Shown: positions 15,918 to 59,717 of the stretch, in pieces | Layout: every line of letters starts with the position of its first letter | How positions within the stretch are numbered: position 1 is the stretch's first letter | Assembly (NCBI GenBank): GCA_964016885.1 | Contig: OZ024747.1 | Location: 7,192,001-7,256,000, forward strand | Reading direction: 5' to 3' | From: Eledone cirrhosa | Lineage: Eukaryota | DNA length: 64,000 nt | Position numbers and translations under genes: made by a program | The notes under the pieces: model-generated | The model's input: the letters and a program-made list of their open reading frames with translations, nothing else | Database searches by the model: none | What the model was told of the DNA's origin: nothing

Positions 15918-16378
15918 ATATAGATCCTCCTATTTATGAATACAGATCATATTTTAATATTTTCTTTCTTTTAATTTCAGATAATTCTGGCTGTGATCTT
16001 CATTGCAAAGTGTTCTCGCATGTCTACAAAGTAATCCAAACAAACAGAGGCAGGAAGAGAAATAAAAGCAATAAAACTAATAAAGGCAGTGAAGAAACTC
16101 AGAGAAAATCTTAATGTATTGTGTATTTTCCACTTGAATACAATCATTAGCCACCATTTTCTCCACTTGACTACATTGCAGTAACATACTTCGTCTTCCC
16201 CATCAGTGATTCTCACTGTTTGGGGTGTAGTGTTGTTGTTATTTTCATCAAATTGTGGTTGGACTGGTGGTCATTGAATGTAATATATTCAAAATCTTCT
16301 TTGGTTGTCTTCTTTCGGTAAACTACTTCCACTCATCCTCTTCAGTCCCTTATCTGCCGCCCTGTCTCCAGCACCAAT

Positions 16379-16482
16379 ATGAAGGTATATGCTCTCTCGG
16401 TCCTCTACAAAGGAGAGACCAAAGTTCGTTTATTGAAGGGCTGCTATGAATTGTCATCGTTTGGCTATTTCCAGCGATCAAC
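16379..16482 (+). CDS. YKT6: YKT6 coding exon 1 (longin domain start)
   Basis: ATG at 16379; translates MKVYALSVLYKGETKVRLLKGCYELSSFGYFQRS(T), matching the Ykt6 N-terminus (human MKLYSLSVLYKGEAKVVLLKAAYDVSSFSFFQRSS); donor GTAAGT at 16483; 104 nt. Confidence 0.97.
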
Positions 16483-16567
16483 GTAAGTAACCCTAGTCTT
16501 TTATTATTCTTTTATTTATTTTGGTAGGGTGTTGATTTCTATTTCTTTTAAAGAGTTTTCTCTTTTC

Positions 16568-16769
16568 TATGAGGGCTGACTGAAAAGTTCATAGGCTGAT
16601 TATGGAGGATTGATGCTAGAGCTGTGAAATCTTGCATGCATTAATTTCAACTCTTCTTATCAATAAGTGCATTGTTTCTTTCCAAGGACTATGTTGAAAA
16701 ATAAACCTCATTTGGTCATTCCATGAGAGTATCTTGGTCAGCCTATGAACTTTTCAGCCGACCCTAGTA
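16568..16769 (+). mobile_element. Mariner-type MITE
   Basis: TIR core ctgaaaagttcataggctga / tcagcctatgaacttttcag, TA flanks. Confidence 0.8.
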
Positions 16770-17043
16770 TTATGCTACTAATTATACAGATACCTAACAT
16801 TGTTAGCTTTAGGTTATAAACTTCTCACTAAGACTAATTGTCAACTTTTAGCATCATACCAACTTTCTACAGTATCATCTTGACTGAAAATTGTGTTTGT
16901 TTGGTTAAGATAATAAGCAACAAGTGTTTGGTTTGTGTGTTTATATTCAGCTAGCATCTCTGTTTTATTCTTCCGGAAGTGACACAATTCGTCATCCTCA
17001 TTTTAATGTCTGTTTTTTTTCATACTTGTATGGGTTAAACAGG

Positions 17044-17258
17044 TCCTTCTCAGCATCGCATCTCTCCACTCACCACGTTCCTTCTCAGCATCGCATCTCT
17101 CCACTCACCATGTTCCTTCTCAGCATCGCATCTCTCCACTCACCACGTTCCTTCTCAGCATCGCATCTCTCCACTCACCACGTTCCTTCTCAGCATCGCA
17201 TCTCTCCACTCACCACGTTCCTTCTCAGCATCGCATCTCTCCACTCACCACGTTCCTT
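17044..17258. repeat. 35-bp minisatellite, about 6 copies
   Basis: Unit tccttctcagcatcgcatctctccactcaccacgt. Confidence 0.95.
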
Positions 17259-17769
17259 CATCAACTTCTCTCTGTGAGTCTCAGTGAAGTATTTTTTGTG
17301 ACTGTTTGATTGTTGAAGACTTTTCTTTGCAAGAAGTTGTCGGAATACTTGAAAAAGTGGTAGTTGGTTAGGGAAAGATCCAGTGTGAGATGTGGCAGAC
17401 CTCTGGAGTGATGGTTGTGCAATTTGTGGTAGATTATTGACATGTAAGAGGTTTGGAGGACCTTTTTATTGGCAGTGCTGGACATTGACATTGCAATATT
17501 GGAAGCATTTCATCAGTTTCATTATAATACAGGAAACCTCAGAACTGACTTGAGTATATTTGTGTGTGTCTGTATGTATATGTGTATATATATATATGCA
17601 AACCTCACATATGTGAAACAGAAATGCACACATGCATGCACATGGAAACACATTCATGTACACACATAAATACATCCACATGCAAACATCACTCTGTTAA
17701 CATGTTTACCATGAAAGACTACCACATACTGAATGTCTATCCTCATTCTACTATTTCTCTGTTGTCCAG

Positions 17770-17852
17770 TGTCAAAGAGTTTATGGAGTTCACCAGTAGA
17801 ATTATAGTAGAACGTTCTAAACCATTCTCGAGATCTTCTGTCAAAGAACAAG
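17770..17852 (+). CDS. YKT6: YKT6 coding exon 2
   Basis: Acceptor ctctgttgtccAG, donor GTAGGT; VKEFMEFTSRIIVERSKPFSRSSVKEQ with conserved F39/F42; 83 nt, phase-compatible. Confidence 0.97.
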
Positions 17853-18934
17853 GTAGGTGCAGTTTCTTCTGTAAGGAATATGTTATGACATGTAAGCTGT
17901 ATTCATTTAAAGATTTGAATTATAGTAGAGACTTAGTATTATGTGGGAGACAGGTATATTGGTTGTTGATTTAGGGGCTGGTGAAAGATAGTTTAGGATC
18001 CACTTTACACTATACCAATCTGGCAGGGATAGGTACAATGTATGTGAACTGGAAGACTATGAGTTCAGTGTGTGTGTGTGTGTATGTGTACATTTTTATT
18101 TAGCCAAGGAAGGCACCACCCTGGACCATTTTTGCAAGATCTTTATGACCAGCTGAGGAGTCAGAAGAAATCACAACTTCGGGGTTATCCTTAAACTAGA
18201 AACCTGATCTGAATTCTTACATTAGAGTGGAGTCTGCTAGAAATGTTGTTAAACAGGTACAGTCTATTTGACAGGTTTCCACAGTTTCCATCTATCTAAT
18301 TACATTCACAAGGTTTAAGTTAACCTGAGGATATGGTAAAAGACATTTGCCCATAGTGCTGGGCAGTGTCATCAAATCTGAATCATTTGGTTGTAAAGTG
18401 AACTTAAGCAAAATATGAGAATGGGGTATGTTGTAGGACTAGCCTAATGCACATCCAGGGCCTTGAGTGTAGGGAGAATTTGATATAATTAATGTTATAA
18501 AGTTCAGTTGAACTTGTATCAGCCTTGTCAGTTGTTCTGGTAGAATCTAGTCCTAGAGAAGTAATATTGGTAAAATGTTTAGTAACTTGTCTGGAGGTGG
18601 GAGTAAAGTTCTGGGTATTTACAAAGTTGGTTTAGTCCCAAGTTGGCTCTGATTAAGCAGACTTATATTCAAAAACCATGGCCAGCCCACCTGTCTTTTT
18701 TCAGACATAATATATCTAAAACTATTCAATATGGCCTTCCTGTTTTAAGACAGTAAAGTTTCATTTAGAAGATATTTAACTGTTATTTTTAGCAGGATGA
18801 ATGACCACATAGATGGGCTGTCATTGGCATGTATTTACAAAGTAGAATCAGTTGTTGATAATTGTACATTGATATGTTTTAACACTTTTCTTTTTGTATT
18901 TGCCATTTAATTTTCTTCTTCCTCCCCATTTTAG

Positions 18935-19035
18935 ATTATCTCTGCCATGTTTACATACGAGGGGATTCATTAGCCTGTGTCATGATAGCAGACCACGAAT
19001 ATCCTCAGAGAGTGGCTCACACATTGCTCTCTAAA
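18935..19035 (+). CDS. YKT6: YKT6 coding exon 3
   Basis: Pyrimidine tract plus ttAG, donor GTAAG; DYLCHVYIRGDSLACVMIADHEYPQRVAHTLLSK; 101 nt. Confidence 0.97.
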
Positions 19036-21326
19036 GTAAGAACATCTTTCTCTCTTGATCCCTTCTTCTCTCTCTCTCAAAAGGTTGATCCCTGGAAAGG
19101 CATCCAGCCATAAAACATTGCCTCAGAAAGAATCCTAGGATGAGTATGATTAAACCTGCCTTAGGGTTCACTACACTAACCTCTGTTTTAGCTGAGAAAA
19201 TGGCCTTAAAATGCTTGTGTGTAACTTTTACATTCACTTTTCTTGCTTTTCGTTTTTGGCATGGGTTGGTGATCTGCATGATAAAAACACCCAGTACATG
19301 CTGTGAAGTGGTTGATGTTAGGAAAAGCATCTAGCCATAGAAAGCTTGCTAAACAAAGGGTTGGGAGGACCCCCTCAGTTCTGGCATGACAACTTCTATG
19401 CACTTGATAGAATGTATGACCATATGTAAGCAAGATGCAGACCCCTTTGCCTGTCAAGAGGACAGTAGCCCTGCTTCAGTGCTAAGTCGACCTGTCCAAC
19501 CCTTGCTAGCAAGGAAAAGAGGTATTAAACAATGATGATAATGATGTCTCTCCATTTGTCATAGTCATTCATCATCCCTTTTGTAAGGCTCAGAGATCAG
19601 CCTTGAATTATTTGGCAAGTCTTCACCCAACTCCTTTTCACAAGCCTTTCAAGTTTATACAGCACATACATCTCTCCTACATACTACCTTGCTAGTATGG
19701 AAGATGGACATTAAATGATGATGATGATACTACAGCCATTTACTCTGATGCAAACCTTTTCTCTGTTTTGCATGCTGGCATTACACATTCAGTGGAACAT
19801 GTTTACCCAAGCATCAGAGAAACCCTTTGTTACTAACAGAAGTAACAGCTCCCTGAACTATTCTACTTTTGCGACACTCACCTCCACTGTTAACTATACC
19901 TGTGCATCTATTTACACATCTAGTGTTTCTTCTCTGTCAGTGAGTCTGAGATCTCACTCTATACTGTATACATTAGGTATACAGTATAGAGTTTTATTAC
20001 CATATATACTTGAAAATAGTGTAATATTCACCTCCAAAGCCAAAATATATTAGTATCTCGTTTACGTAGAATTTGAAATTGGTGAAAATTGGGAAAATAT
20101 TAGCCTCGAATATAAACCGAACCCCACCAACACATTTTACCATTGATTTGTTTTGTCATATTTCTCAGCTTATATACAAGTATACACGGTACTTCCCTCC
20201 CAGATGATGGTAGAGCTTTATATCTTTCCTACTAACTAAAACTTTTGTCTTTGCTAGTTTAACTTTTTAGTCCTCTCAATTCTAAACTATGATTCCCTAT
20301 TTGGAACTTTTCTCCTAATTCTTCAATTGATTCAACTATGAGGACTGGCCCATGAGTGTGTAGTTCCCATAGATAACTGGTCGTAAACTCTTGTGGTATT
20401 TAGTTATCTCCCTTCCTTCTTGGTTCAAATACTGTTCTATATATTTTGGACAACTATAGACTTGTGTTGGTGATTTACATTATAAACGTACCTAGTGCAC
20501 TCTATAAACTGGTTGGTAAAAGGAAGGGCATCCAGCTGTCAAACAAAGGGTTGGAAGGACTGTTCAGCTGTGTCAAAGGTGTTGGTGCCATAATAAAATG
20601 CACTCAGTAGAGTGCAGGATCATATGTCAAACCCCCTAGCACACCTGGAGATCAGGGGCTCCGCTTGAATACTGACTGGTCTGTGATATGTTCAACCCTT
20701 GCTAGCATGGAAAATGAGATTTCTCTGTTTGTTTATTCAGCTGTCATCTTCCATATGTCCATATCTTCAAATGTTTTGATAGTTACTTCAACAATGGTAG
20801 ACAAAACTGTTTTTGAGTCCCTGATTAAATGGACCTATGACTATTCTAACCATAACTATCCTGTCTTCTTGTGATACTTTATCTCAGACTACATTATCCT
20901 ATATGTTCTTTTTATGGTAGTTTTTGCAGATGGTAGAGTGGGATTTGAAGATTTTGCTGCTATCTCTAACAGTATGAACAACCTTATAGAGGCTCCCTTA
21001 TTGCCTGAATATCTTGAAACAAGAACTATAGTTGATTCTAAGTAATTTTTTCAAAAGCATTGGAGGCTTGTCATATTGCCTTAGTTTGGTGCATGCCACC
21101 AGGCCTTCAGATAAGTGAAGTAGCCTTTGTTGGGGCTTTACTAATAGTTGTTAAGGATTTATTAAGTATTGTGGTTGGCAACTTAACAGCTTCAGCTTAA
21201 GAAAGGCAACAGATGTTGCATATATGCAAATGTGTGTGGGGCTCTGTCTGTGTTTCTGTATAGTTTTGTGTTCATTGCCTTTGCCATCTTTGTCTTACAT
21301 TATCATTAACCATTTGATAATTCCAG

Positions 21327-21385
21327 GTTCTTGATGACTTTAAACTCACAGTTCCTACTGAGAAATGGCCAACCATAACAGAGAG
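21327..21385 (+). CDS. YKT6: YKT6 coding exon 4
   Basis: ttccAG acceptor, GTAAG donor; VLDDFKLTVPTEKWPTITE(S); 59 nt. Confidence 0.93.
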
Positions 21386-21887
21386 GTAAGATCATGAGAT
21401 CTAAATTCACTTGTATTCTGTATAATATTTATGGTCATATTTCTTCTGTTTGGTCAGTCTGCTGATTGTTTGACCTCTTCAGTATGGCCAACTGTTTGGC
21501 CTACTTGGAACAGTAACAAAATCCCCATCACATTCTGCTGTCTTAAAAAAGCAAAGACATTGGATAATATAGTTCCTAATATACTAAAAGATGGGATGGT
21601 CATGGCTGGAATGATTTTGATCCCCACTCTGTTCTATTGAGGTTGACCTGAAGCTAAACATCAACAGGTACCCCATGGCATACTGTGAGAAAAGGTTGCG
21701 GTAGACCTATAGGGTCTAATTCAGTGATGTTTGCTAATGTGAACATCACAACAAAATCTATCTCATACTAAAGTTGGAACCACACAACTATTTGCTACAT
21801 TACCATTTATTAGTGACCGTTGCTCCATTGTTATCCAAAACATTCCTTTTTACTTTATTTATTTGTATTTATTTTTCTGTTTTTCAG

Positions 21888-21933
21888 TGAAGTAAATTTC
21901 CCCAAATGTGAAAAGTATTTAAATGATAGCCAG
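21888..21933 (+). CDS. YKT6: YKT6 coding exon 5
   Basis: ttttcAG acceptor, GTATGT donor; EVNFPKCEKYLNDSQ; 46 nt (59+46=105 restores the frame). Confidence 0.92.
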
Positions 21934-21979
21934 GTATGTATTACAACAAAACACTTTCACTTCGATCAATTGACTTTGT

Positions 21980-22222
21980 TTAACCCTTTTGATACCAAAC
22001 CGTTTGAAACCACCTTGGATTAATGATACAATACCTCTCATTTATAAAATATCTGTATATTAAAACATTCCATCATAATTTTATTTTAGAAATTTTTGTT
22101 AAATAATGTTCTAAATATCGGCTTATTACATAAAATTCCTCCAAAATGTTTGGTTAATTAAAAAAATTATTGAAACACATAGGCAGTGTATTTTATTAAA
22201 AATATGGTAATAAAAGGGTTAA
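21980..22222. mobile_element. piggyBac-type MITE (family 2)
   Basis: TTAACCCTTTTGATACC ... GGTAATAAAAGGGTTAA. Confidence 0.7.
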
Positions 22223-23124
22223 GGAAAAAGACTAATCCTTACCAATATGCCTTTGGTTTCCCTTCACTTTTCATCTTTTGGAGGGGAAGATTCCTGTCAG
22301 TTCTTCATTGTAATGGTCTCTGGTAGGTTGTCCTCATGTCCCATATTCTCTGAACCCTATTCTACTTCAGATTTAGATTACATCTCTCGCACTATTTTTT
22401 CTCTCTGTTATCGACCAAGTTCTTACCTCTAACTAGATACACATTGCCCCCTCCTTAAACTTCTGCACACAAGCGCCATCTACATTCAATCTAGAAACCT
22501 CATATCGAAGCTTGCATTACTTCCATGAAGATGGACTGTGAAACCTCTAATGGAGACATGTTGGCAAAATTTCTTTCAACTGCACCAAGACACAATTGCT
22601 GTAAATATGTACACACACACACACATAAGCTACATACATTTGATCTTCCACAATGCTGTTGCCACAAAAAAAGAGCACTGAGTCTACCCTGCATGCAGAT
22701 CTGGTGCCACAACAACAAAAGCACTAGATGAAACTACACATATACAGCATCAGTAAAACTTTATTCAAACATTTTGTTACATAATATAAGAAAAGATACG
22801 ATTGAAGTGAAAAGATACTCAGTGTTGTTTGATTCTTGATACAGTTTCCTGTCTTCTGTTGGCTGTTTTCTCAGGAACAGGTCTGAAAAAAGCTGGAAAC
22901 ATTTAGTTATGGTGTATACCATGCATCCCCAAAACAAACAAGCAAAAATGTGAAAAAAAACTGTGCAGTATACATGGAAGAATACAGGACAAATATTTCT
23001 AGAAATTCTTTCATGTTTTTTCTTTCTCTTTCATCAATTCCACTGTGATCCTTATTCTGTTTATTGCTGTTGTGGTCACTGTTACATTACTGCTGTCTTC
23101 TATGTCTGCTGCTCACCTCAAAAG

Positions 23125-23190
23125 AATCCACAAGAAACTGATGCTATGACCAAAATTCAAAATGATTTAGATGAAACAAAAATTATTTTG
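23125..23190 (+). CDS. YKT6: YKT6 coding exon 6 (start of R-SNARE helix)
   Basis: NPQETDAMTKIQNDLDETKIIL; weak ctcaaaAG acceptor, GTGAGT donor; 66 nt. Confidence 0.95.
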
Positions 23191-23775
23191 GTGAGTATCC
23201 TCTTTTGTTTGTCCTTAGTGTGTGGTGTTACAGTATTGCTGGGTTTATTTTAAAACTTCACAATTTTTGGTTTTGTTTCCATGTTTTGAAATTCTTCTCT
23301 AATTCTTTGACAGATTCATTACTATGGTAGCTAGATCATCAATATATAGACTTTCTTATGGACAGCAAGTTTTATACAAATACTGTGATTTTCTAATGAC
23401 TGCTAATTTGCTGTACTATTTCAGTATATTACTGGTACTTATTTTGTCGATCTTTAAAGAGTGACCTGTCAAATTGAGGATTTAACTATGTACCGGAAAG
23501 TGCTTTGTCTGTATCTTGTCATCCTACAGCAACAACAACAATAATAATTTCTAACAAGGCGTAAGGGTGTATAGTTGATTAGATTGACCAGATTTTATAG
23601 ATCCTAGAAGAATGAAAGCTAAAGTTGACTTCAATAAGAGTTGAACTCAGAATGTTGGTACATAACATCCACAATGTTTTGTTATCTATTAATAATTTAA
23701 AATAATTCTACAATAATTCTCCTTCATTTCAACCATGAGTGTAAAGTTTTCTTGGAACATTTTGTCTTTTTACAG

Positions 23776-23877
23776 CACAACACAATTGATGCCATTTTGG
23801 AGAGAGGTGAGAAGCTAGATGACCTTGTTGAGAAGTCAGAAGGACTGAGTACTCAGTCAAAATCTTTCTACAAAACA
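23776..23877 (+). CDS. YKT6: YKT6 coding exon 7 (R-SNARE motif)
   Basis: tttttacAG / GTAAGT; [34 protein letters not shown] with zero-layer R163 and S174; 102 nt. Confidence 0.98.
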
Positions 23878-24862
23878 GTAAGTTGGCTCTTTCTATGTTC
23901 TCTATATAATATGTATGTATGGATGGGCCTGTAACCTCTGGTGGAGTTCTAGGGCACCATAGTGATATATGGCATGTCTTGGGCACTTTAAAACTGGCAG
24001 AGCCCAACCCTTCTATAAGTCTGAATGCAGATTTCTTCAAGAGAGAGAGGGGGAGATAAAGGAAGGGAGAAAAAGACATAGGGGAAGAATTGAGCCCAGT
24101 ATTGCACTGGTACTTTTTTTTTTAGACCTCGAAAAGATGTAAAGCAAAGTTGACCTCAGTGAGATTTGAACTCAGAGAGCTTGAACAAATTCTGCAAAGT
24201 GTTCTGTTCGATGTTTTAACAACTCTGCCAATTCATCACCTTATTCTCTCTACATACCTTTGTATCATACCAGCTTTCTATAGAACACAGTTATTGGGAC
24301 TTATCTCAATGAACAATACTACATATCCATTCTATGACAATATAGGAGGTAGAAGTGATTATCTTTTTGAAAAATTTTTTTTTTTTTTTTTTTACAACTT
24401 TACTGGAATGGTCCCACAGCTCCTGAGGGAATCGTAGAGGTGCCATATGGCATACAACATTTCTATGGCATTTTAAAACCTGGTGGAGCCCATCTCCTCT
24501 CCAAGTCACAACACTGCAGATTTCTTCCAGAGAAGAAGTGAGAGTGTTACAAATATCTGTTGTCAATTACCTTCATTTAAATTTTGTTGTAATGATATAA
24601 AACTACCACAGCTCATTTACAGTCTGTACCCAGCTGTTTTATAAAGTTATTATTATTATTATTTTTTTTTTTTTTAGATAATCAAGAATGAGTTCACTAT
24701 TATAGAAGTTACAAAAAACCTCAAAGATACTCAAATATACCATCTATTCTTTGATATGCACCACTCTACAGCACCATGATATATCACATGAAGCTGTCAA
24801 ACCACATCATGCTATGCTATTTTACCTTAATCCACTTTGCTAGTGTTTACTATTTATCTATT

Positions 24863-25117
24863 ATTTCACATAATATTGGTCCATACCAAGTTGCTCTCTA
24901 CCACTATACCATACCCTGTTATATTGCAATGTAGTCATACCACACCACCCTACCTTATTTCACATAATATTGGTCCATACCAAGTTGCTCTCTACCACTA
25001 TACCATACCCTGTTATATTGCAATGTAGTCATACCACACCACCCTACATTATTTCACATAATATTGGTCCATACCAAGTTGCTCTCTACCACTATACCAT
25101 ACCCTGTTATATTGCAA
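24863..25117. repeat. 94-bp tandem repeat, about 2.7 copies
   Basis: cacataatattgg recurs at 24867, 24961, 25055. Confidence 0.92.
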
Positions 25118-25613
25118 TACATTCTACCATACTGTGCCACATCATATGGTTATACCTGAATCATACTTAACACATGAGACTATGTTGTGTTCTGCTATAA
25201 CATTACCACACCATACACAGTTCTAGGCAGTGAGTCGTTAGAATCTTAGCTAGAATGCTCTGTGCTATTTGTTCTGGCTTTCTGTTCTCTCAGTTCAAAT
25301 CTCACTGAGGTCAACTTTGAAATCCTAGTCTAGTACTAGGGTCGATTCGTCCTATATATTTCTTATTCACTTCCATTCTCACTCTATTCTTCTCTGGAAG
25401 AAATCTGCTGTATTCAGCCCTGGAGAGGATTGGGCTCCACCAGGTTTAAAAAGGCCCTAGAAATGCCATATGTCAATATAGCGTCTCTATGGCTCCTTCA
25501 GTTCACTCTGCCAAACTATAATATGCCGTAATATTTCACAGTACAACAGTAAAGCATCTTACACAATTTCTAAGAATCCAAACAACCTACACAGGCTTCC
25601 TCCAAATCAGAAG

Positions 25614-25832
25614 CCTCTTCAGGACATTACACATGACTGCAGTAGTCAGTACACAGTAGCCTACACACCTCCTCTTCAGGACATTACACATGACTGCAGT
25701 AGTCAGTACACAGTAGCCTACACACCTCCTCTTCAGGACATCACACATGACTGCAGTACACAGTAGCTTACACACCTCCTCTTCAGGACATTACACATGA
25801 CTGCAGTAGTCAGTACACAGTAGCTTACACAC
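25614..25832. repeat. 57-bp minisatellite, about 4 copies
   Basis: Unit cctcttcaggacattacacatgactgcagtagtcagtacacagtagcctacacacct. Confidence 0.92.
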
Positions 25833-26157
25833 CATATACACCCAGTGTGCATGTGATGATGATCCCTTGTGTTTCTGATATTGTAAGATCAATGGTGTCT
25901 GGAGATTAGCTTCTGTTAAGTCAACCTATAAAAGTAAGGTCAAACTGCTGGTTCCAGACAAACAATGACCTCACCAATATCTTAACATAACAGAAGTAAT
26001 AAGAAGACTTCAGCAGATACAGTTTCTCTGATATCTTAGATTCCTTGCTACAAGGCCTCAACTTCAATATCCCTAAGGATCTAAATAAAATCCTGCACAG
26101 ATTCTCTGTGAAAACCACATGGCTGCAGTATTATGCCAAGATGATATGTGTATACTC

Positions 26158-26467
26158 TTATATCCATATATCATTATATCCATATATCATTATATCCATA
26201 TATCCTTATATTCATATATCCTTATATTCATATATCATTATATTCATATATCCTTATATTCATATATCATTATATTCATATATCCTTATATTCATATATC
26301 ATTATATTCATATATCCTTATATTCATATATCATTATATTCATATATCATTATATTCATATATCCTTATATTCATATATCCTTATATTAATATATCCTTA
26401 TATTCATATATCATTATATTCATATATCCTTATATTCATATATCCTTATATTCATATATCATATTCA
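26158..26467. repeat. 16-bp minisatellite
   Basis: Unit tatc(c/a)ttatattcata. Confidence 0.92.
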
Positions 26468-26479
26468 TTTATACCTATG

Positions 26480-27440
26480 ATTATACTGACTCATGCTGTA
26501 GACTTATCTGGAATCTTAGACAGCAGAATGTCGAAATGTTTCTGGAAAAGGTCTACATCCACCTCGTGTTGATTTCTCAGTTTTTTTGGCAGCATATTAA
26601 AGAGCTGGAGGCCTTTGAACCTCAAGGTATTGCAGTATTTGGTCCTTACTCTGGATTTGGAGGAAGAGACCTTTGCCACTATGCAGTGACATCTTATTCA
26701 GGAGTTGCTATAGCTCTCAATGTCAAAGATTGATGCTAGATCTTCTAGTGTGTATATCACTGCATATCTTTCTCATTTTCACTTTAGGTGTAGAGTCTTA
26801 ATTTTTTCAGCCTCTCACAGTAACTCACCCCTTTCATTGAAGACAATCTTCTTCATATAACATTGTTGGATTACTTCAAGTTTTGCTGATAATTGAAGAC
26901 TGAGAGAGTAATAGTCCAAGCAGCTGAAGACAAATGTCCTGTACAGGACCAACATTGTTTTCTGGTCTTGAATGACCTTAGAATCCATCTGACCTGTGGT
27001 CTGAACATTGTGACCATTTTGAGTTCATTTTCAATTTCAAGCAGTATTTGCTTCAAATGGGATTATTCAGTCTTTTAATTGTATATTTAATTGATTTGAG
27101 ATCTTTGTTGTTTATCTCATATGGATCTTTCTATCTTTTGAAATCATATTTTTCTGTCTATTGGCCTGTCTTTCTGGAGCAACTTTAATGCATATGGTTT
27201 GCATTATTGTCATAAAATGGTTAAATTTTATGTGAATGTCTTGTTTCAGAATCTGTTTATGAATCCCTTTCCAGTTAACTTTGTAAAGTTTTAGCTGGAT
27301 AGAATGTGGGTTCTTCCTGTAGGCTGCTTATCTAGTTTCGCTCAGACCATATATTGTTAGTTCTATCTTATGGTCTGGAGTCACCTTTACAAAGCCGAAA
27401 TGATGGTAAAAGAATAGATTGATACACGTTCTTATCTTAT
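26480..27440 (-). mobile_element. CR1-like LINE remnant
   Basis: Minus-strand WILRSFKTR and RVRTKYCNTLRFKGLQLFNMLPKKLRN...FDILLSKIPD, typical CR1 ORF2 C-terminus; interrupted by stops. Confidence 0.65.
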
Positions 27441-27484
27441 TCTTTCGTTATTTATCTCTATATGTAACTCTGTATCTTCTTTTC

Positions 27485-27713
27485 TTAACCCTTTAGCATT
27501 TAAACTGGCCATATCCGGCCAGTATTCTTTCACCTCTTTCTGTTCAAACCAGCTGTAACCAGCCACTCATACTGACATTAAGGTATTGTTCTCAAAATAG
27601 GTAATATCAAAATCTCGTAGATTCGATATTATGTGAGATAATTATGTGAAATAAAGCCTTTACCACAAAAATACAATAGTAAATCTAGAGTAATGGTAAT
27701 GCTAAAGAGTTAA
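27485..27713 (-). mobile_element. piggyBac-type MITE (family 1)
   Basis: TTAA flanks, TIR CCCTTTAGCATT; other copies at 33035-33239, 36873-37094, 37268-37851, 39319-39490 (partial) and 47571-47784. Confidence 0.8.
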
Positions 27714-27803
27714 GTAATATGTATCACCAATACATGAGTTCTAACTTGGTTTGAAATCCAGCTTAGACTACGTGGACCAATATGTATATATGTGTACACA
27801 CAC

Positions 27804-28003
27804 TTAGGAGTTAGCTGAAAAGTTCATAGGCTGACCAAGATATTCTCATGGAATGACCAAATGAAGTTTACTTTCAACATAGCCCCTGAAAAGAAACAGG
27901 GCAGTTATTAATAAAAAAAAAGAAGTTGAATTTTATGCATACAAGATTTCACAGCTCTAGCATCACTTCATCATCAGCCTATGAACTTTTCAGGTAACAC
28001 ATG
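27804..28003 (-). mobile_element. Mariner-type MITE, inverted relative to 16568-16769
   Basis: Internal sequence is the reverse complement of the first copy. Confidence 0.8.
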
Positions 28004-28265
28004 TATGTATGAATCTGTGTATGTATGTGTGATGATCCCTTCAATTATCCTGATGGTTTTTTTTTTATGCATACACTCTTCTTTTTGTTTTGCTTGTTCC
28101 CTCAACTCTGCCTTATTTTCTACTAAATTCCTTACACAGTTGACCTCTTGACTGCCCATCAGGAAGTGGTAACAGCACACAGCAACAGTCCCCTCCCTTG
28201 GGTCATGCTTTTGTGTATCTTCAACTGTCAGGCCCCTAATGTCTTTTGTTTGTGGTTGCTTCCAG

Positions 28266-28472
28266 GTGAAACCCAGAGAACCAACACCTCTCCCCTCTGT
28301 TGAAGATCCCTTGGTCAAGACAGAACAAACTCATCCTTACGCTGACTACTCTGTCCGTGGTTGTGCTGCTCGTAAAGGCACCAATGCTGGTCGAAGCCGT
28401 AGCACTTCCCTCTGTGGTGACTGTAGTTGCCAAGCAGCCAACCGTTGTCTTCAGGCTGCTCGTAACTCAATA
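28266..28472 (+). CDS. YKT6: Candidate alternative in-frame YKT6 cassette exon (69 aa)
   Basis: cctaat branch-like site, tgcttccAG acceptor, ata|GTATGT donor, 207 nt, phase 0-0, stop-free; non-repetitive with many T-ending codons. Confidence 0.55.
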
Positions 28473-30062
28473 GTATGTTTAACTCTCCAACCCTTGCACG
28501 TAGTTCAGCTCTTCATCTCTCCTACTAGAGTTCTCTGTTATTATCAAGCTTCTCTCTCTCTCACTCTCTTGATTCGTGTTTGTTGGAGCATACTCTGAGC
28601 CTTTCGCTCTTGAGTTATCAAATATTTGTAGCTTAGTAGCTGCTTCTAATTGAGTATAACTGCCACAATTGCTTCCTTTTCAGTATAGTTAAATGACATT
28701 GCTTGGTCTATTCGTCACTGTTGTAGCCAACTCCATTTTGCCTCATTCTAATTGCTTCAAGCCTCTTGCTCTTCTCTCTCATTAGATATGCAATCACCAA
28801 CACGAATAGCCTAATTAATAGCACAACTACAGTCACCAATCTAACTTGAGTACCTGGCTCATCACATCTGCTAAACCTCTAACTTCACTATCTGTCTGAT
28901 AAGTGGTTATCTGCCTCAGCATAGCTAATATATATATTGACTCTGATGATATTCTTCAGTCACTGTCTTGATACCTGCTTCTTATATCTGTTATAGATGA
29001 CCATCCCATCTGGTTACCTGCCTCACCCTAACTACTGTAGATAACCACTTAGACACCTAGCTCACTATATCTATTACTCCCACAATGCCTGTATCTTTGC
29101 TTGGCTAAATGCTATCATTGTTGGTAAAATGTTATCATTTAGGTTAGCTTTTCTCTGTATCTCTGTGTGTGTGTGTGTGTGTCTGTGTGTGATGGGAGAC
29201 AAATTCTCTGGTATTCTAGGAGTCTGTGGTGATATTTACAAATATAAATTTTTTTTTTTACAGAATTTGTGTTTTAACATCCACTAGCATGCTGAGGCAC
29301 TGCAGAACACTTAATCTTTCATGTAGTAATTCAATGTTATGCAAGCTAGTCATTTGACTGACAATCTATATGCTATAGGTCTGCTTGATCAAAGCTGATT
29401 TGGAGCTATATAATAGCAACAACAACAACAATGATGGATGGTTTGTTAGAATTGCTTTCTAATGTTGTCTGCAAGTTCATGAAAGAATTTCAGTTTAGCA
29501 TAGTAAAGTAATGCTGCACACATCATGTGTATGTGTGACAAACTTTACTTCTCTATCATACATATTGGGGCTGTGTTGTATGCTAGTTAGTGTGATGAAC
29601 AGTACAGTGGAGGACAAGCCTTAGACCTATGACACCTATCATCAAAAGCTTATTAGCCATGACCATCATTTTTGTCTTATTTTCAGGCACACTACTCTGG
29701 ACTACATTATTCAGTGTGTCTCCTTTTAAGACAGTGTGTAATTTGAGGGAAATTTGGCTGTTATTTTTAACAGGTGGAGTAACCATATTGATATCCTTAG
29801 TTTTGGAATACTTCTTTGAAGAGAGGGAACTCGCTAAAATTTTGTTTGTTGATGAAATAAAGTACCAGTAGAGTCCTGGGTTCGATTTAATGAACACCCT
29901 CCCCCAAATTACTAGCTTTCTGCCAATATTAGAGAGAATTATATAGAAGTAGTTGTGTTGATAAATGGTAATACTAAATTCTGGTGAATGTCAAAAAGGA
30001 AGCCTCAGTTTATATGAAGTCTATATTATATAGCCAGTACTTTTTCTTTTCTATGTTTATAC

Positions 30063-30093
<31 letters not shown>

Positions 30094-30345
30094 CATGTGT
30101 GAATGTATATATGTGTGTGTGTGTGTGTGTGTTTATATACTTATATGAGAGCCCTCAGTTGTGTCAAAGACTTGACAACCTCTCTTATGTACTGAATGGA
30201 GCGTCGACCATACATAAGTGAGACACAAATCCCTGGCCTGTCGGGGAGATTCAGTGGCTCTACTTCAGTACTGACTTAGTCTATGTAGACTCGTCCAGCC
30301 CTTGATGACATTGATAATGATGTATATACACATATGTATATACAT

Positions 30346-30377
<32 letters not shown>

Positions 30378-30909
30378 ATATACACAGATATACATATTAT
30401 GCAAATGGTGTAAATGTGGTTGGTGTTAAGAAGGGCATCCAGCCGTAGAAAACCTGCCAGATAGTCCTATATGAGCGAGACACCTGACCAATTCCCGTCT
30501 AACCCATGCTACTGTTGAAGATAGACGTTAAACGATGATGATGATATACATACACACACATGTACATATATATATATATACACACACACACATGCATGTA
30601 CATATATATAGGCATATATATATATATATACACACACACACATATATGTGTGTATATATGGGGCTGGGCTTTAATTACTGTTCTCTCTGAGTTGTGAAGA
30701 TGTGCACGTACACAGAAAAAGTTAGATGTCTTGTTTGTGTTTGAAGTGAAGACATACTTTTGCCTGGAATAAGAAAAAAATTGCATAAGAGATGATTTCT
30801 GTGTACAATGTCATCTAGAAATTAAAGGTAGCATTGTATTGAGATGTGTTTTCAACACTTCATCCAAATGTATATCTCTATCTTATATATCTTTCTCTTT
30901 TGTTTGCAG

Positions 30910-30945
30910 GCTCGTAAAACAAACCAATGCTGTACACTGTTGTAA
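30910..30945 (+). CDS. YKT6: YKT6 terminal coding exon (CCaaX lipidation motif)
   Basis: tttgcAG acceptor; ARKTNQCCTLL-stop; the eight exons total 597 nt = 198 aa plus stop. Confidence 0.97.
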   Translation, partial: ARKTNQCCTLL

Positions 30946-58639: not shown

Positions 58640-59717
58640 GGGCATTAAACAACCCATTTGTGGCGCCTCCCCCCTATTGGGGATTTCGATTATAATTGTT
58701 TGTTTCATATTTGTACAAGACTGTATGTAAAATACCCGGCATCTGTCTTTGTTTTATCCCCTTTTCTTGTGCGCCCTTGTGGCAAATAAAGAAATCTATC
58801 TATCTATCTATCTATCTATCTGTCCCCTTCTTTTGTGCCCCTGTGGCTAATAAAGAAATATATCTATCTATCTATCTACGGGGAAACTCTAGGCGTAGAG
58901 GAAGACGAACTGGTCAGTCTGTTCGGTAGGACATTCCGCCCGGGACCGATGGACAACTTCCAAAAGTCCCTGGCCTGGCAGTGCTACCGAGGAGCTCTAC
59001 CCGTTCGAGCTCTACAGACACGGGCGCCCGGGTAGGGATCCCTCGAAAAAGATCTGTCCGAGATGCATGCGGGTCGAGGAAACCGTCGCGCACGCATTCG
59101 AACACTGCCCGGGCGTTACCGACCTGTGGAGCTACGCAGAACGACTACTCTCGCGGGTGGGACAAATCCGGTTGACCACCAAGTCCATTATTACGATCAA
59201 ACCGCCACCCTCCTTCAAAAACTAAGGAGAGGCGGGTTTCCTCTGTGTAATGGCTATGGTGTAAGAGGTTATATGGTGGACGAGGCTGAAAGGGCTGAGG
59301 TCAGAATTCTTTCTCTCCGGCGAACAACTGGTTCGCTTCTTCAAATATCTCTTTAGAAGAAGAATCCGGATGGAGAGAGAGGTGCTGAACCCCGCAAATT
59401 TTACGAAAGGTGGGTGAATGTGGCAAGAATGGCCCGAGTGGTTGGGCCTTCTCTCTATATAAACCTGTAGGTTGAGGGAAAAGAGGAAGAGAGGAAAGGA
59501 GCGCTCGCTCTTCGTGTTCCTGGAGATGAGGGTTGTACATTTTTTCGGGGTGTGTACAACCCATGTGTAACGCCTCCCCCTATTGTGGATTTCAATTGTT
59601 ATTTGTTATTTATTTATTAGTTCTATTTTTATACGCTTGTATGTAAACTCCCCACTTTGTATTTGTATTTGTCCCCATCTTTTGTGCCCCTGTGGCAAAT
59701 AAAGAAATCTATCTATC
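58640..59717 (+). mobile_element. Three tandem 5'-truncated Tx1-like LINE 3' ends in a (TCTA)n tract
   Basis: SLAWQCYRGALPVR and ETVAHAFEHCP (CCHC region); the terminus gccc(c/t)tgtggc.aataaagaaat.tatct occurs three times. Confidence 0.7.

What the first reader, a model, noticed from the sequence alone, without database searches (positions are those of the whole stretch)
28266..28472. Hidden in-frame cassette exon that would put a 69-aa Cys-rich spacer between the Ykt6 SNARE helix and its lipid anchor
Seen: in the 7-kb last intron there is a unique, stop-free 207-nt segment with a branch-like cctaat, a ttccAG acceptor and a GTATGT donor, in phase 0-0 like the flanking exons. It encodes VKPREPTPLPSVEDPLVKTEQTHPYADYSVRGCAARKGTNAGRSRSTSLCGDCSCQAANRCLQAARNSI. 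Known: canonical Ykt6 is about 198 aa, its CCaaX lies directly after the SNARE motif, and the prenyl group docks in the closed longin-SNARE fold. Inference: a 267-aa isoform would uncouple zippering from the membrane or disturb autoinhibition, and its five extra cysteines (CGDCSC cluster) could be palmitoylated. I know of no such Ykt6 isoform.
Basis: partly seen in the sequence, partly recalled or inferred. Interest (0 to 1): 0.8.

Follow-up and report, generated by a model that had tools for sequence, protein, structure and literature searches.

The report
Octopus-lineage long Ykt6 splice variant
The last intron of this octopus gene for the membrane-fusion protein Ykt6 holds an in-frame extra exon whose counterpart is already in database gene models of two Octopus species, and splicing it in, likely in a minority of transcripts, would put about 70 predicted-floppy residues between the protein's zipper and its lipid anchor, likely making a version that holds membranes but fuses them poorly.

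Summary
Observation confirmed, and the exon is very likely real. RefSeq has YKT6 isoform X1 of Octopus sinensis (267 aa, the predicted length) and O. bimaculoides (273 aa). Both carry an orthologous insert with the same two boundaries. All three indels among the three inserts keep the frame, none has a stop, and 49 of 68 columns are invariant. So it is on record as a gene model, although three paper searches found no description.

No junction was seen. In four laid runs the contigs over the exon cross the acceptor unspliced at low depth, and the junction to exon 8 was not tested.

Best reading: a minor, probably regulated octopod cassette giving a still-prenylated but poorly fusogenic Ykt6 with a likely second, S-acylated anchor. 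Main rival: RNA-level conservation with a tolerated filler peptide. New variant of a known kind.

The parts
16379..16482 (+). Ykt6 coding exon 1 (ATG at 16379)
   Evidence: joined coding exons differ from the Octopus 198-aa protein at 14 of 198 residues
17770..17852 (+). Ykt6 coding exon 2
18935..19035 (+). Ykt6 coding exon 3 (longin domain)
   Evidence: Pfam PF13774 E 1.3e-07
21327..21385 (+). Ykt6 coding exon 4
21888..21933 (+). Ykt6 coding exon 5 (its donor is also GTATGT)
23125..23190 (+). Ykt6 coding exon 6 (start of the SNARE motif)
23776..23877 (+). Ykt6 coding exon 7: SNARE layers -2 to +6 with zero-layer R163; ends at T187, phase 0
   Evidence: Pfam PF00957 E 2.6e-08; single match in own genome
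28221..28265 (+). Conserved 3' end of the upstream intron part: branch-like cctaat (28235-28240), pyrimidine tract, acceptor AG
   Evidence: contigs of three other organisms align from 28221 or 28233 and not further upstream (table 8)
28266..28472 (+). Cassette exon, 207 nt, phase 0-0, 69 aa; orthologous to the inserts of XP_036365068.1 (69 aa) and XP_052828627.1 (75 aa)
   Evidence: tblastn of both inserts hits exactly 28266-28472, E 2.6e-26 and 2.2e-28
28413..28430 (+). CGxCSC cysteine cluster, the three cysteines invariant in 3 of 3 species
28473..28478 (+). Donor GTATGT
   Evidence: both RefSeq inserts end at the matching residue
30910..30945 (+). Ykt6 coding exon 8: layers +7 and +8, CCTLL lipidation motif and stop

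Best explanation
The segment is an in-frame cassette exon conserved between this octopod and two Octopus species, likely included in a minority of Ykt6 transcripts under splicing control, and its inclusion would give a long Ykt6 that is predicted to stay prenylated but likely fuses membranes poorly, acting as a membrane-held tether or placeholder R-SNARE. Shown: exon anatomy, orthologous inserts with the same boundaries, frame-keeping indels, insertion between T187 and A188, intact CCTLL end. Predicted: about 60 disordered residues followed by a basic helix that runs into the old tail. Inferred steps: (1) the longin domain and SNARE layers -7 to +6 are untouched, so the closed body, its prenyltransferase contact sites and N-terminal zippering with Q-SNAREs should remain; (2) layers +7 and +8 are replaced by V-K-P-R, so zippering would stop early and about 70 residues of slack would absorb the pull on the lipid anchor; (3) the CGxCSC cluster plus the basic helix, 21 residues before the first C-terminal cysteine, could be S-acylated and give a second anchor, shifting the protein from cytosol to membranes.
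For: RefSeq X1 models of O. sinensis (267 aa) and O. bimaculoides (273 aa) have the insert at the same site with the same first and last residues, two accessions each. Three indel events, of 1, 6 and 1 codons, no stop, 49 of 68 columns invariant. Rough neutral chance: 3 of the 12 intronic-repeat indels shown (of 73) are 3 nt long, giving 0.016 for three, times 0.40 for no stop, about 0.006. DNA contigs of three other organisms over 28221/28233-28390 (28359 in one) have net length changes of 0, 0 and +18 nt and differ at 17 of 155, 8 of 124 and 13 of 167 sites, against 9, 9 and 11 differences for the 22 synonymous sites of exon 7 (Fisher p 1e-3, 9e-5, 4e-6). Low silent divergence and a length divisible by three mark regulated alternative exons in vertebrates (PMC2784930, PMC1201369; abstracts). 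Six columns differ in all three species where 2.2 are expected under even rates (p 0.027), which suggests some sites are constrained. Numbering equals human Ykt6, and Thr187-Cys195 is the tail that enters GGTase-III while the closed body binds PTAR1 through other surfaces (PMC9141697 section 5). AlphaFold2 of the 273-aa form: pLDDT under 50 for residues 174-251, helix 249-266. Inserting 3-9 residues after the SNARE motif of synaptobrevin-2 lowers liposome fusion with length (PMC7815645, one results section). A non-fusogenic role for Ykt6 has a precedent in Drosophila (PMC5937789, passages). SNAP-25's S-acylated cluster is CGLCVCPC (search listing).
Against: No junction into the exon was among the 15 of 123 joints shown. 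The exon-7 bin depth is fully explained by one contig in each of 4 runs, and the one contig over the exon in each run bridges the acceptor unspliced, at depth 2.4-4.4 against 11-179 for exon 7 (contigs drop rare forms and depth is a poor measure). In the run that matches the window letter for letter, two unique intron pieces have the same depth (3-3.5), so that contig looks like background pre-mRNA. The insert differs at 12 of 69 residues between two species whose 198-aa form is identical (p 4e-8) and at 14 of 68 against 14 of 198 for the window (p 0.005). The two O. vulgaris records and the one Argonauta record lack it. O. bimaculoides X2 shows another, frame-shifting exon at the same junction, so stray exons get annotated here. 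I could not see the evidence behind the RefSeq models. The DNA alignments stop at 28390, where a mismatch cluster begins, so their divergence is biased low, and the neutral yardstick is one exon. The amphipathic moment of the final helix is not above shuffles (p 0.05-0.16). The AlphaFold model is weak (mean pLDDT 60.6, pTM 0.48) and says nothing on the closed state.
Confidence: 0.5

Rival explanations
1. The exon is real and spliced in at a low or regulated level, but selection acts on the RNA (splice sites, regulatory elements, frame). The peptide is a tolerated filler, and inclusion simply diverts transcripts to an inactive or short-lived Ykt6, an in-frame off-switch, or has no effect.
For: Most DNA differences are amino-acid-changing: at least 9 of 13 and 12 of 17 if the runs encode the RefSeq-like peptides (inference). 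12 of 69 residues differ between two Octopus species against 0 of 198. Conservation is highest next to the acceptor (10 of 10 first residues) and extends into the branch region. Only unspliced low-depth contigs were seen. A 2026 paper lists O. bimaculoides YKT6 with dN/dS 1.11 against its sister species (PMC13669787, passage); whether that model includes the exon is unknown (supplement unreadable).
Against: Three of three indels keep the frame and there is no stop; an off-switch would be made more easily by a frameshift. 15 of the last 21 residues, with the three cysteines, are invariant. Site-rate unevenness p 0.027.
Confidence: 0.33
2. The segment is mainly the start of a retained or terminal piece: splicing uses the 28266 acceptor (or none) and reads through the GTATGT donor to the stop at 28596-28598, giving a Ykt6 that ends in a hydrophobic tail without the CCaaX motif.
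For: The frame stays open from 28173 to 28598. All four contigs over the region are unspliced at the acceptor. In one run 103 letters past 28390 did not lay on the stretch, unexplained.
Against: Both RefSeq models leave the exon at the residue matching 28472 and join exon 8. No AATAAA or ATTAAA in 28473-29600.
Confidence: 0.1
3. It is a conserved non-coding element or a decayed mobile-element piece that gene-prediction pipelines picked up from stray splicing; no meaningful isoform is made.
For: Pseudo-exons of this kind occur by chance (62% of shuffles for any, 8% for 180 nt or more). A second stray exon is annotated at this junction. The minus strand downstream is purine-rich with short open frames.
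Against: Same boundaries in three species, frame-keeping indels, no stops. No second copy in the own genome, no Pfam family, no Rfam match near a family threshold, folding weaker than shuffles (z +1.58), no long inverted partner in the window.
Confidence: 0.07

Closest known systems
RefSeq YKT6 isoform X1 of Octopus sinensis (XP_036365068.1, XP_036365069.1; 267 aa) and O. bimaculoides (XP_052828627.1, XP_052828628.1; 273 aa)
   Same: Same exon: same insertion point, same first and last residues, 50 of 68 and 54 of 68 residues identical to the window's peptide.
   Different: Predicted gene models with no description found in three paper searches. The window's species is as far from Octopus as Argonauta is (14, 14 and 15 differences in 198), so the exon is older than the genus.
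Canonical Ykt6 (human 6J74 and 6J7F, rat 3KYQ)
   Same: Longin domain, R-SNARE with R163, 198 aa with identical numbering, two C-terminal cysteines.
   Different: The long form loses layers +7 and +8 from the helix and moves the lipid tail about 70 residues away. The octopod motif ends CTLL, not CAIM; a final leucine usually favours GGTase-I (recalled, untested).
VAMP7/SYBL1 splice isoforms (longin family)
   Same: Alternative splicing reshapes a longin R-SNARE (PMC3123573; abstract and passages).
   Different: Those arise by exon skipping that removes domains or shifts the frame; here a new exon is added in frame and the anchor is kept.
SNAP-25 S-acylated cysteine cluster and linker
   Same: C-G-x-C-x-C spacing just after a SNARE motif, in a flexible region (SNAP-25 motif from the listing).
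   Different: Three cysteines, not four; no sequence homology (no PDB hit at E 10); no VVASQP-like site downstream by eye. A six-residue pattern is a lead only.
Tomosyn and amisyn, decoy R-SNAREs (recalled)
   Same: An R-SNARE motif that can enter a complex but is not coupled to a membrane.
   Different: Those are separate genes; here the decoy, if it is one, is a splice form of the working SNARE and keeps a lipid anchor on a leash.

Membership tests
Ykt6 (longin R-SNARE) | N-terminal longin domain | tested here: met
   PF13774 on exon 3 and on both long isoforms
Ykt6 (longin R-SNARE) | R-SNARE motif with zero-layer arginine | tested here: met
   PF00957 residues 136-187; R163; 1:1 alignment with human Ykt6, E 2.9e-75
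Ykt6 (longin R-SNARE) | C-terminal CCaaX, no transmembrane helix | tested here: met
   CCTLL at the end of the short and long forms
Ykt6 (longin R-SNARE) | Unbroken SNARE helix through layers +7 and +8 up to the lipid anchor (long form) | tested here: not met
   A188 and T191 are replaced by V and R with a proline between (layer offsets recalled from the VAMP2 scheme)
Ykt6 (longin R-SNARE) | Closed longin-SNARE fold that hides the lipid (long form) | tested here: inconclusive
   AlphaFold2 model has pLDDT about 50 over the SNARE part, pTM 0.48
Ykt6 (longin R-SNARE) | Double prenylation of the two C-terminal cysteines | not testable with these tools
   Tail Thr187-Cys195 and PTAR1 contacts described in PMC9141697; the tail from A188 on is kept
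Conserved modular cassette exon | Length divisible by three, symmetric phase, no stop | tested here: met
   207 nt, phase 0-0; orthologues 69 and 75 codons
Conserved modular cassette exon | Same exon in inclusion and skipping forms in other species | tested here: met
   RefSeq long and 198-aa models in 2 of 3 named Octopus species; the evidence behind the models was not visible
Conserved modular cassette exon | Reduced silent divergence in the exon and its flank | tested here: met
   6.5-11% overall against 41-50% at exon-7 synonymous sites; rough, one reference exon, first 41 codons only
Conserved modular cassette exon | Junction reads on both sides | tested here: inconclusive
   None among 15 of 123 joints shown; contigs only; exon 8 lay outside the stretch laid
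Conserved modular cassette exon | Tissue-switched inclusion | not testable with these tools
   Runs are coded and carry no tissue label
SNAP-25-type S-acylated cluster | Clustered cysteines C-G-x-C-x-C | tested here: met
   CGxCSC invariant in 3 of 3 species; pattern only
SNAP-25-type S-acylated cluster | Four cysteines and a downstream zDHHC17-binding motif | tested here: not met
   Three cysteines; no VVASQP-like site downstream in the aligned inserts (by eye; motif from the listing)
SNAP-25-type S-acylated cluster | S-acylation in cells | not testable with these tools
   needs acyl-biotin exchange or click labelling
Exonised transposable element | Related copies elsewhere in the genome or a transposon protein match | tested here: not met
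   One match each; no transposon family; the genome search skips very common words, so an old repeat is not excluded

The most novel reading that the evidence does not exclude
Octopods evolved a new exon that turns the universal fusion SNARE Ykt6, by a tissue-controlled splice switch, into a dual-anchored non-fusogenic form: a SNAP-25-like acylated cluster on a long leash that holds Ykt6 on membranes and parks Q-SNARE complexes half-zipped, a home-made decoy cut from the working SNARE itself.
Probability: 0.25. Interest if true: 0.7.

Novelty: new variant of a known kind. Interest (0 to 1): 0.45.

Why it matters
Ykt6 is almost invariant in length: all intact cephalopod and other animal forms aligned here are 198-199 aa, and its lipid tail follows the SNARE helix directly. 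A conserved natural isoform that breaks this coupling would be a ready-made test of whether Ykt6's roles need force transfer to its anchor, a question raised by the Drosophila finding that fusion-competent complex formation may not be its main function. It would also be a worked case of a lineage-specific exon added to a core trafficking gene in octopods. It may explain an odd published dN/dS above 1 for octopus YKT6. Against this: the isoform is already in RefSeq, may be rare, and its function is untested.

Tried and rejected
Searches with the 69-aa peptide alone found nothing: longer proteins, 13 candidates, none at E 1; 1.84 billion representatives, none at E 0.001; metagenome contigs, 402 pattern matches, none confirmed; PDB none at E 10; Pfam none; Atlas best score 0.83, below its bar, and no usable hit for the O. 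bimaculoides insert. Searches were false negatives, since the orthologue is in the collection and was reached through exon 3. A search with the O. bimaculoides insert returned only the O. sinensis form among 33 candidates, so no squid, cuttlefish or other mollusc counterpart was found, which is weak evidence of absence. No contig covered 28391-28472 in the four runs laid (depth arithmetic); contigs do not show absence. The stretch laid ended at 30200, so the 28472-30910 junction is open. Origin by duplication of exon 8: a 22-nt look-alike at 28368-28389 scores 29, below an unrelated window at 32 among 249 windows, rejected. Structured RNA, snoRNA or miRNA: four Rfam matches far below their thresholds, folding z +1.58, rejected. 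Editing-type inverted partner: longest hits 15 and 19 nt, rejected. Antisense gene or retro-element frame: unique, no family, not supported. The extra exon of O. bimaculoides X2 has no tblastn match in the window. Amphipathic helix: not significant. A zDHHC17-type motif: a QP-ending look-alike in one species only, upstream of the cysteines, rejected by eye. Earlier findings of this scan: two look-ups, both empty. The supplement of PMC13669787 could not be read; it may show whether its YKT6 model includes the exon.

Full report
Observation. The segment is as described: acceptor ttccAG before 28266, donor GTATGT after 28472, cctaat at 28235-28240, 69 codons without a stop. The host gene has eight coding exons from 16379 to 30945 and gives 198 aa; exon 7 ends and exon 8 starts in phase 0, and inclusion gives 267 aa. 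An exon-7 search gives one match in the genome, and the segment and its downstream flank give one match each. The anatomy alone is weak evidence. A crude splice-site rule finds 5 in-frame stop-free pseudo-exons in this intron, from 2 acceptors; 62% of 300 shuffles hold at least one and 8% hold one of 180 nt or more.

The exon exists in other octopods. Searches with the peptide alone failed. A search with exon 3 returned 24 proteins of 25 candidates, the best two being Octopus RefSeq isoforms of 233 and 267 aa. Of the 15 members of the four clusters looked up, two carry the insert: O. sinensis X1 (267 aa) and O. bimaculoides X1 (273 aa) (one 116-aa member was not read). tblastn places both inserts exactly on 28266-28472. 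The 198-aa form is one identical sequence in O. vulgaris, O. sinensis and O. bimaculoides. The two O. vulgaris records, the one Argonauta record and the more distant 198-aa cephalopod forms have no insert, and a search with the insert found nothing beyond the same cluster among 33 candidates. The window's species differs from Octopus and Argonauta by 14 residues each, and those two by 15, so the exon predates the genus Octopus; the tree does not resolve the order. RefSeq X models are pipeline predictions, usually built on RNA-seq introns (recalled); I could not see their support.

How it evolves. The three inserts align with 49 of 68 ungapped columns invariant, no stop, and three indel events of 1, 6 and 1 codons. 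A rough neutral chance for this is 0.006: 3 of the 12 indels shown for intronic repeats (73 in all) are 3 nt long, and simulated neutral change to 22 amino-acid differences leaves no stop 40% of the time. The RefSeq models are selected for an open frame, but contigs from three other coded organisms agree: net length change 0, 0 and +18 nt, with 6, 6 and 24 gap letters, the numbers that the two RefSeq inserts require (they may be the same species, so this is not independent). Those contigs differ from the window at 17 of 155, 8 of 124 and 13 of 167 sites, while exon 7 shows 9, 9 and 11 differences for 22 synonymous sites (Fisher p 1e-3, 9e-5, 4e-6). This assumes the exon-7 differences are silent, uses one reference exon, and covers only the first 41 codons, because two alignments stop at 28390 where a mismatch cluster starts and one contig ends at 28359. 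At protein level the insert is fast: 12 of 69 differences between two species with identical short forms, and 14 of 68 against 14 of 198 for the window. Low silent change with high replacement change is the pattern of regulated alternative exons in vertebrates (PMC2784930 and PMC1201369, abstracts only). It supports a real exon more than it supports a precise peptide function. One 2026 paper lists O. bimaculoides YKT6 with dN/dS 1.11 against its sister species and itself warns that such ratios are noisy (PMC13669787, passages). That would fit a gene model with this exon, but the supplement could not be read.

RNA evidence. Four runs were laid on 23700-30200, all as assembled contigs, three guessed to be RNA and one of unknown kind. 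Exon 7 is covered by one contig per run at depth 73, 11, 152 and 179. The region of the cassette is covered by one contig per run at depth 4.4, 4.1, 2.4 and 3.1, each bridging the acceptor with 33-74 intron letters, that is unspliced. No joint from exon 7 into the cassette is among the 15 of 123 joints shown. In the run identical to the window, unique intron pieces at 29418-29605 and 29610-29936 have similar depth, so its cassette contig looks like pre-mRNA. Contigs drop rare forms and tissues are not known, so this shows only that skipping is the main assembled form in these runs. The junction to exon 8 lay outside the stretch.

What the protein would do. Octopod and human Ykt6 align one to one. 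With R163 as the zero layer, F184 is layer +6, A188 is +7 and T191 is +8 (offsets recalled from VAMP2). The exon enters between T187 and A188, so it cuts the SNARE motif rather than following it, and puts V-K-P-R in place of the last two layers. That point is also the start of the tail Thr187-Cys195 that reaches into GGTase-III, while the closed body is held by PTAR1 through longin surfaces (PMC9141697, section 5 read). Prenylation should therefore remain possible (inference). AlphaFold2 on the 273-aa O. bimaculoides form with a 23-sequence alignment gives pLDDT under 50 for 174-251 and a low-confidence helix at 249-266; mean pLDDT 60.6, pTM 0.48, no statement on the closed state. In synaptobrevin-2, 3-9 inserted residues after the SNARE motif already lower liposome fusion (PMC7815645, abstract and one results section), while very short linker changes are tolerated (PMC2185554, passages). 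About 70 residues should uncouple zippering from the anchor (inference). Three cysteines in CGxCSC are invariant, the other two are not, and the C-terminal 39 residues carry a net charge of +6 to +7 in all three species. The spacing matches the start of SNAP-25's acylated cluster (search listing), a lead only. Ykt6 acting without a fusion-competent complex has a precedent in Drosophila (PMC5937789, passages).

Alternatives. An RNA-level exon with a filler peptide is the strongest rival (0.33). A read-through or terminal form ending at 28598 is possible because the frame stays open, but no poly(A) hexamer follows within 1.1 kb and both RefSeq models use the donor. A non-coding element or stray exon is unlikely; Rfam, folding, repeat and inverted-partner tests were blank, although O. 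bimaculoides X2 shows that a frame-shifting exon is also annotated at this junction.

Novelty. The isoform is in RefSeq and UniRef. I found no paper on it: 'ykt6' with 'alternative splicing' and 'isoform' gave 56 papers, 20 listed, none on a Ykt6 isoform by title or abstract start; 'ykt6' with 'octopus' gave 5, 3 listed, one opened; 'ykt6 isoform' gave 0. Closed-access journals are not covered. My odds: exon truly spliced in some octopod tissue 0.85; peptide under selection for a function about 0.5; the full decoy-with-second-anchor mechanism 0.25. Verdict: new variant of a known kind, interest 0.45.

Noticed in passing
window 30910-30945: The octopod Ykt6 motif ends CCTLL and the other cephalopod forms end CCVLL or CCVIL, against CCAIM in human. 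A final leucine usually directs GGTase-I rather than farnesyltransferase (recalled), so the first lipid may differ from mammals.
   Followed up: no
P0002 (XP_052828629.1), residues 188-233: O. bimaculoides isoform X2 has a different exon at the same junction that shifts the frame of exon 8 and removes the CCaaX motif; no match for that exon in the window.
   Followed up: partly
P0027 (CAI9733247.1): An O. vulgaris model of 281 aa continues past CCTLL with 83 further residues; no match in the window. Probably an annotation artefact.
   Followed up: partly
window 28368-28389: A 22-nt stretch inside the cassette resembles the start of exon 8 in the same orientation, but scores no higher than an unrelated part of the window.
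   Followed up: yes
window 28390-28391: Contigs of two other organisms both stop aligning at 28390, at a GT; one has 103 further letters that did not lay on the stretch. A mismatch cluster explains the stop, but an inner donor (124 nt, frame-shifting) in those species is not excluded.
   Followed up: partly
window 15981-16378 and near 13692: An acceptor-like tttcAG at 15980 and another near 13692 suggest non-coding 5' exons; each RefSeq X1 protein has two accessions, which would fit alternative 5' ends.
   Followed up: no
window 855-1211 (+) and 58899-59222 (+): Open frames with weak zinc-finger matches (zf-met E 0.001; zf-RVT E 0.0011, both under the curated cut-offs), likely ends of decayed LINE elements.
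   Followed up: partly
window 24060-24180, 25260-25430, 27480-27710, 27810-27990, 29850-29890: Intron 7 holds several high-copy repeats with very deep contig cover in the laid runs, plus tandem arrays near 24860-25120, 25620-25830 and 26150-26470.
   Followed up: no
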